Below, one piece after another: positions 30,254 to 31,240 of a stretch of 36,037 bases of DNA (position 1 is the first letter of the stretch; each line of letters begins with the position of its first letter). The DNA comes from a virus. A model generated the notes under the pieces. The model was not told where the DNA came from. It saw nothing but the letters and a program-made list of their open reading frames with translations, and did not search any database. The DNA is taken from the IMG/VR virus record IMGVR_UViG_3300045776_000084. One strand, written 5' to 3'. The translations under genes were made by a program, and so were the position numbers.

Positions 30254-31240
30254 TTACTTACCAGCCTTTGCAGCCTTCTTGTTGGCCAGTGAAGCCTTCA
30301 AAGCGGCCATCAGGTCAACCGTGACCACTGCGGTGGCGTCCTGCTTCTTGACTTCAGGAGCGGCCACGCCAGCCTTCTTGGCGGTCAGCAGGTTGCGGAA
30401 GCGAATCGAGAACTTGTCGTTGTAGTCCGAGGAGACGAACTTGTCAGACATCGCCTCGCCAAGCTGCTTCGCCAGAGTCTTCTCGTCCTCGCTCAGGACA
30501 ACCGGGGCAACCTTGTCGAAGATGCGGATTTCGTGTTCGAAGTACACGAAGTGAACCGCCAGACCAACCTTCAAAGGGCGGATGATGACAGTCTGTTCAC
30601 GCCCCCTCTGAGCGGTCTGAGCAACAGCCACCTGACCCGTGCTCACCAGCATCTCGCGGAAGACGGCGAGGGCGCGTTCGACAATCGAACCACCATCGGC
30701 TCCGAGGTACTCGGCAGCTTCGAAGTACAGGGGGTCAACTTCCGTCGCCGGAACCAGCTTCTCAACGGTCATGACCTTGTCGGCCAGAACCATGCAGCCC
30801 TTCTTCTCGTCGTCAGTGATGACGAAAAACTTGCCGTCGTCATCCTTCATGCCCTTCAGGGACTGGGCACGCTCGACAATCGCCTCGCACGCCTCACACT
30901 TCATCGCACCCTGCTTAAGCTGTCCGTACACGGGAGCCTCTTCAGAGGCTTCGTGGTTGCACTGGTGAATCATGTTGGTCTTGAACTTCTCGGAGTCCTC
31001 AATGACCTTGTAGGTCTTGACGGGGACGGTCAGGCCATTCGCGCCCTCGATGACGACCAGCTTACCCGACCAAGTCGAACGGCCACAGCCAACCTTCTCG
31101 GGGGCGGCGGCGTTCACATCGGCGAACTCAACCTTCGGGTGGAGAAGGTTGTTCAACTTGCTGGAGAGGTCGGCGACACTAGGCTTCGCGGGAGCCGCGA
31201 CGGGGGTTTCGGTCTTCGATGTGTTCTTTGCCTTTGCCAT
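30254..31240 (-). CDS. ku: Ku (bacterial NHEJ DNA-end-binding protein) with a Lys/Ala-rich N-terminal extension
   Basis: Ku core: WSGKLVVIEGANGLTVPVKTY, then HQCNH...CEACEAIVERAQSLKGMKDDDGKFFVITDDE, resembling Mtb Ku HQVHAKDNGRIRYKRVCEACGEVVDY...GQMVAITDDD. VDPLYFE resembles VDPMMFD. A C-terminal DLMAALKASL motif. AAGGAGA RBS. Confidence 0.8.
   Translation of the reverse strand: MAKAKNTSKTETPVAAPAKPSVADLSSKLNNLLHPKVEFADVNAAAPEKVGCGRSTWSGKLVVIEGANGLTVPVKTYKVIEDSEKFKTNMIHQCNHEASEEAPVYGQLKQGAMKCEACEAIVERAQSLKGMKDDDGKFFVITDDEKKGCMVLADKVMTVEKLVPATEVDPLYFEAAEYLGADGGSIVERALAVFREMLVSTGQVAVAQTAQRGREQTVIIRPLKVGLAVHFVYFEHEIRIFDKVAPVVLSEDEKTLAKQLGEAMSDKFVSSDYNDKFSIRFRNLLTAKKAGVAAPEVKKQDATAVVTVDLMAALKASLANKKAAKAGK

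What the first reader, a model, noticed from the sequence alone, without database searches (positions are those of the whole stretch)
30254..31240. Phage-encoded Ku, paired in the same element with its own ATP-dependent ligase (13261-14046)
The Ku homologue is unmistakable (core beta-barrel segment, CEAC motif region, VDP..F, C-terminal DLMAALKASL). A few mycobacteriophages (Omega, Corndog) are known to carry Ku and to borrow host LigD for genome circularisation. This element additionally encodes a compact DNA-ligase-like enzyme about 16 kb away. The Ku also has an unusual 50-aa Lys/Ala-rich N-terminal extension reminiscent of histone-H1-like DNA-binding tails.
Basis: partly seen in the sequence, partly recalled or inferred. 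Interest (0 to 1): 0.65.

Follow-up and report, generated by a model that had tools for sequence, protein, structure and literature searches.

The report
Huge-phage Ku with its own ligase
A fragment of an uncultured large soil or peat phage encodes a genuine Ku DNA-end-binding protein and a very small ATP-dependent DNA ligase, and related phages keep the same two genes close together or adjacent, so these viruses may join broken DNA ends without host enzymes, although this has not been shown.

Summary
Both genes are real. ORF 30254-31240(-) is a bacterial-type Ku: Pfam Ku E=1.7e-20, and E about 1e-14 to solved bacterial Ku structures. ORF 13261-14046(-) is a 261-aa ATP-dependent DNA ligase core with all six motifs; the AF2 model (pLDDT 95) matches LigIV, LigIII, LigI and the LigD ligase domain, not RNA ligases.

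The window is a whole 36-kb contig of an uncultured phage (rIIA/rIIB, tail fibre); relatives lie on 100-430 kb contigs.

In 8-9 of 11-12 informative related lineages, Ku and this ligase lie 0.1-16 kb apart on one strand, and they are adjacent in L032, L040 and L050. A second lineage pairs a different Ku type with a WGR-fused ligase of the same family. The 16-kb gap here therefore looks like a stretched ancestral neighbourhood.

The pairing is not obligate. One relative has the ligase but no Ku at the syntenic site. The ligase family is large (1,821 clusters), and 24 of 24 bacterial-MAG loci lack Ku nearby. Ku is linked more tightly to rIIA-rIIB than to the ligase.

The 52-aa N-terminal arm of Ku is real and clade-specific, but only mildly basic, so not H1-like.

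Verdict: a plausible self-contained phage end-joining pair, a new variant of a known kind, with function unproven.

The parts
30254..31240 (-). Ku gene (328 aa): N-terminal arm, Ku core ring domain, conserved minimal C-terminus and a short basic tail
   Evidence: PF02735 1.7e-20. TIGR02772 134.5 bits. phrog_4873. Solved bacterial Ku E about 1e-14. AF2 core pLDDT 85-97.
31085..31240 (-). Clade-specific N-terminal arm of Ku (aa 1-52): MAKAK start, short amphipathic helix at aa 22-33, then P-EK before the core
   Evidence: Present in all clade members and absent from bacterial Ku. SD AAGGAG lies upstream of the ATG. pLDDT 48-69 with helix 22-33. Net charge +2.
30254..30316 (-). Ku minimal C-terminus 'DLMAALKASL' plus a 10-aa basic tail (ANKKAAKAGK) and the stop codon. 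The long basic C-terminal arm of bacterial Ku is missing.
   Evidence: D309, L314 and L318 are invariant. C-terminal tails are 10-21 aa in the clade against 31-42 aa in the bacterial Ku compared.
31265..31294 (-). Promoter-like site TAGACAAATCTGGTACTTCCCCGGTATACT, 25 nt upstream of the Ku ATG
   Evidence: three exact copies of TAGACA-N16-20-TATACT in the window against 0 in 100 shuffles.
13261..14046 (-). Compact ATP-dependent DNA ligase (261 aa): nucleotidyltransferase domain (about aa 1-170) plus OB domain (about aa 171-250), with no DNA-binding domain
   Evidence: PF01068 38 bits. Motifs I-VI conserved. AF2 pLDDT 95.3. Foldseek top hits are DNA ligases IV/III/I, archaeal ligases and Mtb LigD LigDom, E about 1e-15.
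14189..14218 (-). Promoter-like site TAGACAAACCCCCGGTACTCCCCGTATACT, 143 nt upstream of the ligase ATG; same motif class as upstream of Ku
32944..35370 (-). rIIA homologue, the conserved upstream neighbour of this Ku clade
   Evidence: phrog_612 1.1e-98. The rIIA-rIIB-Ku order recurs in L005-8, L030, L080 and L081.
31719..32951 (-). rIIB homologue, directly upstream of Ku in relatives (a 106-aa CxxC protein is inserted between them here)
   Evidence: phrog_609 2.3e-56. PF26926 in relatives. tblastn.
35375..35404 (-). Near copy of the same promoter-like motif (TAGCCAAAAAGGTGTCAACCCCGGTATACT) just upstream of rIIA
10335..11390 (-). HNH + RNA ligase. A separate enzyme, and a conserved downstream neighbour of the DNA ligase in relatives.
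   Evidence: PF09414 1.9e-28 and PF01844. phrog_24030 3.7e-112. Lies next to the ligase in L010, L038 and L039, and within 4-7 kb in L009, L020, L024, L030, L085 and L086.
14295..28347 (.). About 14 kb of intervening genes that separate Ku from the ligase here: a plus-strand tail-fibre module (14295-20627), 860-aa and smaller ORFs, and a major-vault-protein homologue (25888-28347)
   Evidence: Tail-fibre phrogs. MVP_shoulder 3.5e-26. In L032, L040 and L050 this block is absent and the two genes abut; in L007 and L001 only part of it is present.

Best explanation
The window is an internal fragment of a large, uncultured tailed phage. It carries a set of nucleic-acid damage-control and counter-defence genes on one strand: a UvrB fragment, rIIA, rIIB, Ku, a DNA ligase, an HNH-RNA ligase and a peptidyl-tRNA hydrolase.

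Shown:
- Ku is a bona fide bacterial-type ring protein.
- The 261-aa protein is a catalytically complete ATP-dependent DNA ligase core made of a nucleotidyltransferase domain plus an OB domain.
- The two families recur together in related phages, and they abut in some of them.
- In this phage both genes start behind the same promoter-like motif.

Inferred mechanism:
- A Ku homodimer threads onto free ends of phage DNA. These are the incoming linear genome or ends made by host restriction or CRISPR nucleases.
- Ku shields the ends from host exonucleases and bridges two of them.
- The phage's own compact ligase then seals the strands. This would be a self-contained 'Ku + ligase-domain-only' version of bacterial NHEJ that does not need host LigD.
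- The ligase probably also seals ordinary nicks on its own. That would explain why it survives in relatives that lack Ku.
- The clade-specific N-terminal arm of Ku may replace the truncated C-terminal arm as the partner-docking element. This last point is speculative.
For: Identity of Ku.

Identity of the ligase as a DNA-type enzyme. The nearest NCBIfam models are LigC/LigD-type (PRK08224, NHEJ_ligase_lig), though far below their cutoffs.

Only one ATP-ligase-family ORF is found in the window.

Co-occurrence on one strand in the standalone-ligase clade:
- Window: 16.2 kb.
- L001/L004: 14.4 kb.
- L007: 8.7 kb.
- L030: 5.5 kb; L041: 1.9 kb; L040 and L050: about 0.4 kb; L032: 0.13 kb.
- L087: 2.4 kb, beside an HhH-GPD glycosylase.

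A second lineage (L011, L012, L014) pairs a Ku without the N-terminal arm with a WGR-fused ligase of the same family within about 7 kb. In a rough NJ tree the two Ku groups form one clade in only 8 of 100 bootstraps.

Ku is rare in deposited phages: 87 of 50,697 records, 86 of them mycobacteriophages.

The same promoter-like motif precedes Ku, the ligase and rIIA: 3 exact copies against 0 expected.

Ku keeps the minimal C-terminus. In M. tuberculosis this region suffices to stimulate dsDNA ligation and stimulates nick sealing by the isolated LigD ligase domain (PMC9638933).

Precedent for a phage ligase aiding end-joining escape from Cas9: T7 gene 1.3 (PMC11294054).
Against: - No experiment or interaction prediction links the two proteins.
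- In the window they are 16 kb apart, in separate transcription units. In L032, where they abut, an 11-bp terminator-like hairpin lies between them.
- L039 has rIIA-rIIB, then 3.2 kb of small ORFs with no Ku, then the ligase.
- L010/L038 and L088 show no Ku within 8-10 kb.
- The ligase family has 1,821 clusters at E<=1e-30, and 0 of 24 MAG loci have Ku within 10 kb.
- Ku is bound more tightly to rIIA-rIIB than to the ligase.
- No LigD-type polymerase or phosphoesterase was found in the window.
- The isolated Mtb LigD ligase domain seals only nicks (PMC9638933).
- Motif I has Asn in place of the usual Asp (KFNGER) throughout the close clade.
- All close lineages may descend from one ancestor, so shared synteny is not fully independent evidence.
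Confidence: 0.45

Rival explanations
1. The two genes have independent jobs. Ku acts alone as an end protector, like Mu Gam or T4 gp2: it caps the ends of the injected or replicating linear genome against RecBCD/AddAB-type nucleases as part of the rII-linked counter-defence set. The compact ligase is the phage's general nick-sealing enzyme for replication, recombination and repair. Their proximity reflects only shared membership of an early DNA-metabolism region inherited from a common ancestor.
For: - Ku is adjacent to rIIA-rIIB in about seven lineages, a tighter link than to the ligase.
- The ligase is retained where Ku is missing (L039).
- The ligase is widespread without Ku.
- There are separate promoter-like sites, and a hairpin between the genes even when they abut.
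- ATP-dependent ligases are common replication components of jumbo phages (PMC7824862).
- The spacing between the two genes drifts from 0.1 to 16 kb.
Against: - Ku is otherwise very rare in phages, yet it is found near this ligase family in two Ku lineages that do not group together.
- Direct adjacency occurs in L032, L040 and L050.
- Ku retains the ligase-stimulating minimal C-terminus.
- No replisome genes flank the ligase in the window. Its conserved neighbour is an RNA repair ligase.
Confidence: 0.35
2. Omega/Corndog-type use. The phage Ku recruits the host's LigD to circularise the incoming genome at short cohesive ends, and the phage ligase is irrelevant to that step.
For: This is the only experimentally described role for a phage Ku (PMC12848934; PMC3706429). 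The Ku core and minimal C-terminus are bacterial-like.
Against: - Only about 27% identity to mycobacteriophage Ku.
- The extended C-terminal arm, which in M. tuberculosis is critical for interaction with LigD, is cut to 10 aa.
- This phage has its own ligase, unlike what is reported for cluster J phages.
- The host and the genome ends are unknown.
Confidence: 0.12
3. The 261-aa protein is not a DNA ligase in practice (it is RNA-specific, a capping-type enzyme or inactive), so there is no Ku-ligase pair.
For: Weak PF09414 RNA_ligase similarity (E=0.16 here; weak or faint in relatives). Motif I has Asn instead of Asp. phmmer finds almost nothing in the PDB.
Against: - PF01068 scores above its cutoff, while PF09414 scores far below its own.
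- An OB domain with motif VI (RxDK) is present, and all catalytic residues are conserved across 37 sequences.
- The 50 structure matches listed at the top are all DNA ligases.
- A dedicated RNA ligase is encoded separately.
Confidence: 0.04

Closest known systems
Bacterial two-component NHEJ (Ku + LigD; M. tuberculosis, B. subtilis)
   Same: Homodimer-type Ku of about 300 aa with the same core and conserved minimal C-terminus. An ATP-dependent ligase whose catalytic core matches the LigD ligase domain in fold (6nhz, 1vs0). The genes are neighbours in several relatives.
   Different: The ligase has no polymerase or phosphoesterase domains, and none are encoded nearby. Ku lacks the long basic C-terminal arm and instead has a 52-aa N-terminal arm. 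The genes are carried by a phage and are 16 kb apart here. Ligase motif I is KxNG.
Mycobacteriophage Ku (Omega gp206, Corndog gp87)
   Same: A phage-encoded Ku-domain protein. The phage also encodes an RNA ligase for RNA repair (PMC3706429).
   Different: Only about 27% identical. Omega and Corndog are reported to use host LigD, whereas this phage has its own DNA ligase. Cluster J Ku carry an Lsr2-like C-terminus; this Ku has an N-terminal arm. This Ku is linked to rIIA-rIIB, and the phage lineage is large and uncultured.
End-protection proteins of phages (Mu Gam, which is Ku-like in fold; lambda Gam; T4 gp2). The comparison rests on my own knowledge of these proteins.
   Same: A phage protein expected to bind or shield double-strand ends early in infection.
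   Different: This protein matches the Ku family proper; no Mu Gam profile hit was returned at E<=1. It is accompanied by a ligase.
Minimal ATP-dependent DNA ligases (Chlorella virus PBCV-1 ligase at 298 aa, bacterial LigE at about 260-280 aa, T7 gp1.3, LigC). Sizes are from my own knowledge.
   Same: A two-domain NTase+OB enzyme without a separate DNA-binding domain, carrying the six motifs. There is a weak match to the LigE-type model PRK09125 (4.6e-5) and to the LigC-type model PRK08224 (1.3e-13).
   Different: All NCBIfam matches lie far below their cutoffs, so it is not a member of those named subfamilies. It belongs to its own large family, which also occurs fused to an N-terminal WGR domain. 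Motif I Asp is replaced by Asn in the close clade.
Archaeal NHEJ with stand-alone Ku, Lig, Pol and PE genes (Methanocella paludicola). From my own knowledge; not checked here.
   Same: Ku is combined with a separate ligase-only polypeptide rather than a fused LigD.
   Different: The archaeal set includes separate polymerase and phosphoesterase genes in the same cluster. None were found here.

Membership tests
Ku (PF02735; bacterial-type Ku) | Ku core beta-barrel/ring domain detected by the family profile above its curated cutoff | tested here: met
   PF02735 74.2 bits against a cutoff of 25, E=1.7e-20, residues 69-245. phrog_4873 2.4e-29.
Ku (PF02735; bacterial-type Ku) | Full-length similarity to experimentally solved bacterial Ku | tested here: met
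   9vnq, 9i91 and 8v53 at E=1.6e-14 to 4e-13, covering residues 70-322.
Ku (PF02735; bacterial-type Ku) | NCBIfam equivalog TIGR02772 (Ku_bact) at its trusted cutoff | tested here: not met
   134.5 bits against a cutoff of 150, although aligned over 12-259 of 259 positions. A divergent member.
Ku (PF02735; bacterial-type Ku) | Conserved minimal C-terminus followed by an extended basic C-terminal arm | tested here: inconclusive
   The minimal C-terminus DLMAALKASL is present and invariant. The extended arm is reduced to 10 aa, against 31-42 aa in the bacterial Ku compared.
Ku (PF02735; bacterial-type Ku) | Homodimeric ring that binds DNA ends | not testable with these tools
   Only a monomer model could be made.
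Bacterial Ku-LigD NHEJ system | Multidomain LigD (ligase + AEP polymerase +/- phosphoesterase) | tested here: not met
   The ligase is 261 aa, NTase+OB only. There were no polymerase or phosphoesterase domain hits in the 32 window proteins scanned with Pfam.
Bacterial Ku-LigD NHEJ system | Ku and ligase genes adjacent or in one operon | tested here: inconclusive
   They are 16.2 kb apart here with separate promoter-like sites. They are adjacent in relatives L032, L040 and L050, but with a terminator-like hairpin between them in L032.
Bacterial Ku-LigD NHEJ system | Ku-dependent joining of double-strand ends by the ligase | not testable with these tools
   Needs biochemistry or genetics.
Mycobacteriophage Omega/Corndog-type Ku | Ku gene carried by a phage genome | tested here: met
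   rIIA/rIIB and tail-fibre hits, with relatives in IMG/VR.
Mycobacteriophage Omega/Corndog-type Ku | Close sequence relationship to the actinophage Ku clade | tested here: not met
   26-28% identity over 75% of the protein. It forms a separate clade carrying the N-terminal arm.
Mycobacteriophage Omega/Corndog-type Ku | Reliance on host LigD, with no phage DNA ligase, and short cohesive genome ends | not testable with these tools
   A phage ligase is present. Dependence on host LigD and the nature of the ends cannot be read from an internal contig fragment.
Phage Mu Gam family | Match to the Gam profile | tested here: not met
   A Pfam scan at E<=1 returned only PF02735.
ATP-dependent DNA ligase (nucleotidyltransferase superfamily; minimal two-domain type) | Adenylation-domain profile above its cutoff, and motifs I, III, IIIa, IV and V | tested here: met
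   PF01068 38 bits against 26.2. K29/G32/R34, E78, D88, E145/G146/K150 and K166/K168 are conserved. Motif I reads KFNGER (Asn for Asp).
ATP-dependent DNA ligase (nucleotidyltransferase superfamily; minimal two-domain type) | C-terminal OB domain with motif VI | tested here: met
   R241-x-D243-K244 is conserved. The AF2 model has a beta-rich C-terminal domain, and the whole model superposes on DNA ligase cores with query-normalised TM-scores of 0.71-0.78 for DNA-bound forms.
ATP-dependent DNA ligase (nucleotidyltransferase superfamily; minimal two-domain type) | Nick-sealing activity on DNA | not testable with these tools
   Needs an enzyme assay.
Named ligase subfamilies (LigD ligase domain TIGR02779, LigC-type PRK08224, LigE-type PRK09125) | Score above the curated subfamily cutoff | tested here: not met
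   50.6 against 296, 36.5 against 227.75, and 22.6 against 200 bits.
RNA ligase (PF09414) | Profile match above its cutoff | tested here: not met
   12.5 bits against a cutoff of 27, E=0.16. The structure matches are DNA ligases.

The most novel reading that the evidence does not exclude
A clade of large or huge uncultured soil and peat phages runs a fully virus-encoded, two-protein end-joining pathway, embedded in an rIIA-rIIB-linked counter-defence island. The pathway consists of a Ku that has traded the bacterial C-terminal LigD-recruiting arm for a new N-terminal arm, plus a 261-aa ligase-domain-only enzyme. The phage would use it to reseal its own genome after cuts by host restriction or CRISPR nucleases, or to circularise on entry, independently of host LigD.
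Probability: 0.3. Interest if true: 0.75.

Novelty: new variant of a known kind. Interest (0 to 1): 0.55.

Why it matters
Phage Ku is so far known from actinobacteriophages. Of the 87 deposited phage records that match this Ku, 86 are mycobacteriophages, and there it is reported to borrow the host's LigD. A phage lineage that brings both Ku and a ligase would be the first candidate for virus-autonomous end joining.

If it works, it would be a counter-measure to every host defence that acts by cutting DNA. It would also be one of the smallest Ku/ligase pairs (328 + 261 aa) that could be tested as a portable end-joining tool in NHEJ-free bacteria.

The conserved rIIA-rIIB-Ku order gives a new handle on the long-unsettled function of the rII genes. 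The swap from a C-terminal to an N-terminal arm in Ku offers a natural experiment on how Ku recruits its ligase.

Tried and rejected
- Nucleotide search of 24 kb of the window against deposited phages found no match, so there is no annotated close relative.
- phmmer of the ligase against the PDB gave only noise and a marginal T4 ligase hit. The fold comparison was needed instead.
- The first family-wide ligase alignment was too diverse for the locus scan.
- The viral-contig scan with the Ku clade found only three distant Ku loci, none with a ligase of any ATP-dependent type within 10 kb.
- I tested whether the shared promoter-like motif is conserved upstream of Ku and the ligase in relatives. 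It is not, so it supports co-regulation in this phage only.
- A hairpin after the Ku stop codon in the window is not better than shuffled sequence (z=-1.55), so I do not claim a terminator there.
- Genome termini (cohesive or blunt) cannot be assessed, because the contig is an internal fragment.
- The Biopython BLOSUM tree with bootstraps timed out. It was replaced by a rough Kimura-distance NJ tree with some saturated distances, so the deep Ku branching order is not resolved.
- The 'histone-H1-like tail' idea is rejected on composition.
- RNA-ligase identity for the 261-aa protein is rejected.
- Three long-contig look-ups (P0012, P0016, P0002) were uninformative. The 10-kb flank ends at the vault-protein gene, just short of where Ku would be expected.
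- The 'Bacteriophage sp.' Ku hit is an unannotated 5.5-kb fragment.
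Full report
**1.

The 328-aa product of 30254-31240 is a Ku protein:
- It matches Pfam Ku (PF02735) at 74 bits, E=1.7e-20.
- It aligns end to end with the bacterial Ku equivalog TIGR02772 at 134.5 bits, just under that model's 150-bit naming cutoff.
- It matches PHROG 4873, 'Ku-like DNA end binding'.
- It matches three solved bacterial Ku chains at E about 1e-14.

The 261-aa product of 13261-14046 passes the Pfam ATP-dependent DNA ligase adenylation-domain cutoff, at 38 against 26.2 bits. It carries all six nucleotidyltransferase motifs: K29-x-N-G32-x-R34, E78, D88, E145-G146-x-x-x-K150, K166-x-K168 and R241-x-D243-K244. 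These are invariant or nearly so in 37 homologues.

**2. What the ligase is**

Sequence search against the PDB was almost blind. An AlphaFold2 model built on 37 homologues is very confident, with mean pLDDT 95.3. Foldseek places it among ATP-dependent DNA ligase catalytic cores: human LigIV, LigIII and LigI, archaeal ligases, the M. tuberculosis LigD ligase domain and the ASFV ligase. E-values are about 1e-15, and query-normalised TM-scores (the model against the target) reach 0.78 for DNA-bound closed forms. No RNA ligase appears among the 50 matches listed at the top.

It is therefore a two-domain (NTase + OB) DNA ligase without a DNA-binding domain. One oddity is that motif I has Asn where DNA ligases normally have Asp. 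This holds throughout the close clade but not in more distant relatives.

**3. What the element is**

An identical Ku sequence is on record, with a longest contig of exactly 36,037 bp, so the window is a whole metagenomic contig. It is a phage fragment:
- rIIA and rIIB lie immediately upstream of Ku.
- A 1,229-aa collagen-repeat tail-fibre protein lies on the other strand.
- Homologues of its genes sit on IMG/VR viral contigs and on metagenomic contigs of 100-430 kb.

It has no nucleotide match among deposited phages. Its rIIA is only 24-31% identical to any cultured phage's. One end of the contig cuts through a UvrB homologue, so genome termini cannot be examined.

No LigD-type polymerase or phosphoesterase was found among the 32 window proteins scanned with Pfam. 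A profile search finds no second ATP-dependent ligase in the window.

**4. Is the pairing more than coincidence?**

I fetched contexts anchored on the ligase and on Ku, then located both genes by tblastn.

In the clade with a standalone ligase of about 265 aa, Ku lies upstream on the same strand at these distances:

| Lineage | Distance |
|---|---|
| L032 | 0.13 kb |
| L040, L050 | about 0.4 kb |
| L041 | 1.9 kb |
| L087 | 2.4 kb |
| L030 | 5.5 kb |
| L007 | 8.7 kb |
| L001/L004 | 14.4 kb |
| Window | 16.2 kb |

The intervening DNA holds lineage-variable genes. These include a major-vault-protein homologue and, in the window, an opposite-strand tail-fibre module. The simplest reading is an ancestral Ku-ligase neighbourhood that has been pulled apart by insertions.

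A second, more distant group of viral contigs (L011, L012, L014) carries a ligase of the same family fused to an N-terminal WGR domain. That ligase lies within about 7 kb of a Ku that lacks the N-terminal arm. In a rough NJ tree the two Ku groups cluster together in only 8 of 100 bootstraps, which hints at two separate associations. Ku is otherwise very rare in phages: 87 of 50,697 deposited records, of which 86 are mycobacteriophages.

**5. What weakens the pairing**

- In L039 the syntenic stretch runs rIIA-rIIB, then 3.2 kb of small ORFs, then ligase and RNA ligase, with no Ku.
- L010/L038 and L088 show none within 8-10 kb.
- An exhaustive profile search shows the ligase family is large, with 1,821 representative clusters at E<=1e-30. 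It comes in a form of about 265 aa and a WGR-fused form of about 365 aa.
- All 24 loci found in bacterial MAGs (Planctomycetota, Verrucomicrobiota, Acidobacteriota, Armatimonadota) lack Ku within 10 kb. At least one of these looks prophage-like.
- The cultured Acidobacteria jumbo phage Tunturi_5 has a distant relative of the ligase but no Ku: none is annotated within 20 kb of the ligase, and the record is not among the Ku matches in deposited phages.
- In L032, where the genes abut, an 11-bp GC-rich hairpin followed by a T-run lies between them.

The ligase evidently has a Ku-independent life.

**6. Ku's tightest partner is rII**

Wherever upstream sequence is visible, with two exceptions, the N-extended Ku follows rIIA-rIIB directly or after one small ORF. 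This holds for the window, L005-8, L030, L050, L080, L081-83 and L084. The exceptions are L001/L002 and L087. In L087 Ku follows an HhH-GPD glycosylase. rIIA is regarded as a poorly understood counter-defence factor with a GHKL ATPase domain (PMC7824862).

In this phage a 29-30-nt promoter-like motif, TAGACAAA-N14-16-CC(C)GGTATACT, occurs three times exactly, against none in 100 shuffles. It lies before Ku, before the ligase and before a 241-aa ORF. A near copy lies before rIIA. This is consistent with one temporal class of expression. The motif is not conserved in relatives.

**7. The N-terminal arm**

The start codon is well supported by an AAGGAG 8-13 nt upstream. All members of this Ku clade have a 35-60-aa extension that bacterial Ku lack. 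The extension consists of an 'MAKAK'-type start, an amphipathic helix (window residues 22-33, ADLSSKLNNLLH) and a P-EK element before the core. The model gives it low confidence apart from that helix.

It has 7 Lys and 10 Ala in 52 residues, with a net charge of +2. It is therefore Ala-rich and mildly basic, not histone-H1-like.

The same proteins have only a 10-21-aa C-terminal tail, against 31-42 aa in the bacterial Ku compared. They keep the minimal C-terminus. In M. tuberculosis the minimal C-terminus suffices to stimulate dsDNA ligation. It also stimulates nick sealing by the isolated ligase domain, while the extended arm recruits LigD (PMC9638933). An 'arm swap' is an attractive but untested idea.

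**8. Most likely mechanism**

Shown:
- a real Ku;
- a real, catalytically complete compact DNA ligase;
- recurrent linkage of the two genes in related phages;
- a surrounding set of repair and counter-defence genes: UvrB fragment, rIIA/B, RNA ligase and PTH2.

Inferred: Ku caps and bridges free ends of phage DNA, and the phage ligase seals them. That would be a minimal NHEJ-like route independent of host LigD, with the ligase also serving as a general nick sealer. I put this at about 0.45.

The main rival, at about 0.35, is that Ku is a stand-alone end protector within the rII island and the ligase is simply the phage's housekeeping ligase. An Omega/Corndog-style use of host LigD stands at about 0.12. 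A non-DNA ligase is unlikely, at about 0.04. The isolated LigD ligase domain seals only nicks and no end-processing enzymes are nearby. Both points caution against assuming full NHEJ. A phage ligase contributing to end-joining escape from Cas9 has a precedent in T7 (PMC11294054).

**9. Comparison with what is known**

A 2025 survey lists 11 viral Ku proteins, all from actinobacteriophages (PMC11936186). The jumbo-phage comparative study discusses ATP-dependent ligases and rII but no Ku. Cluster J phages have Ku and an RNA ligase, and no DNA ligase is mentioned for them.

I found no description of a phage that combines Ku with its own DNA ligase, of the N-extended Ku clade, or of the rIIA-rIIB-Ku arrangement. 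The library does not hold all journals.

The proteins are members of the Ku and ATP-dependent DNA ligase superfamilies. The system is not a member of the canonical Ku-LigD type, because there is no multidomain LigD. It is not the Omega/Corndog type either, because it is distantly related and has its own ligase. I rate it a new variant of a known kind, of moderate-to-good interest because it is directly testable.

Noticed in passing
window 25888-28347 (-): An 819-aa homologue of the eukaryotic major vault protein (MVP_shoulder 3.5e-26, Vault_3 1e-9). It is conserved at 53-61% identity between Ku and the ligase in many related phage contigs (L001, L007, L009, L020, L024, L026, L086, and the P0012 contig). 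I know of no phage role for it.
   Followed up: partly
window 31719-35370 (-), with L005-8, L030, L050, L080-L084: The rIIA-rIIB-Ku gene order is conserved in about seven lineages, a tighter link than Ku has to the ligase. It may bear on the unsettled function of the rII genes.
   Followed up: partly
window 35375-35404, 31265-31294, 25530-25558, 14189-14218 (all - strand): A phage-specific promoter-like motif, TAGACAAA-N14-16-CC(C)GGTATACT. There are three exact copies (0 expected) plus one near copy, heading rIIA, Ku, a 241-aa ORF and the ligase. It was not found in relatives.
   Followed up: partly
window 2040-4568 (-): A Clp-type AAA+ ATPase (AAA_2, ClpB_D2-small; phrog 'ATP-dependent protease') interrupted by an intein with Hint and LAGLIDADG domains, at roughly residues 99-517. 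The homologue in L086 also carries an intein.
   Followed up: no
window 35427-36029 (-): The C-terminal part of a UvrB homologue (UvrB domain 4e-22, Helicase_C, UVR motif) runs off the contig end, directly upstream of rIIA. This is a nucleotide-excision-repair gene in a phage.
   Followed up: no
window 10335-11390 (-): An HNH endonuclease domain fused to an Rnl2-type RNA ligase (PF09414 1.9e-28). It is a conserved downstream neighbour of the DNA ligase in relatives, directly adjacent in L010, L038 and L039.
   Followed up: partly
window 29005-29913 (-) and 28478-28906 (-): An R2K-clade ATP-grasp enzyme (PF14243 6e-18) and a PTH2 peptidyl-tRNA hydrolase lie just downstream of Ku. In L027, L028, L029, L033, L037 and L052 the ATP-grasp gene lies directly upstream of the ligase.
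   Followed up: partly
L011:9641-10768, L057:9725-10804, P0046, and many entries: Many members of this compact ligase family carry an N-terminal WGR domain, the DNA-break-sensing domain of PARPs, giving proteins of about 350-390 aa. These are found in viral contigs and in Planctomycetota, Verrucomicrobiota and Acidobacteriota MAGs. I found no description of this architecture.
   Followed up: partly
window 31292-31612 (-): A 106-aa protein with two CxxC pairs (zinc-ribbon-like) is inserted between rIIB and Ku. It has no family hit and no homologue in the related loci.
   Followed up: no
window 14295-20627 (+): An opposite-strand module. It has a 1,229-aa tail-fibre protein carrying collagen-like GXY repeats and repeated 'TAEVTRAEG.EA' units, a 627-aa protein with a weak discoidin (F5/8 type C) match, and a 237-aa ORF. 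It sits between Ku and the ligase only in this contig.
   Followed up: no
window 6249-6665 (+) and 9607-10311 (-): Homing-endonuclease-type genes (T5orf172/MUG113 and HNH) are scattered in the region, together with the intein. This suggests heavy traffic of selfish elements.
   Followed up: no
L087:5451-7596: In one related contig the N-extended Ku follows an HhH-GPD DNA glycosylase rather than rII, and lies 2.4 kb from the ligase. This is a second kind of repair-gene context.
   Followed up: no
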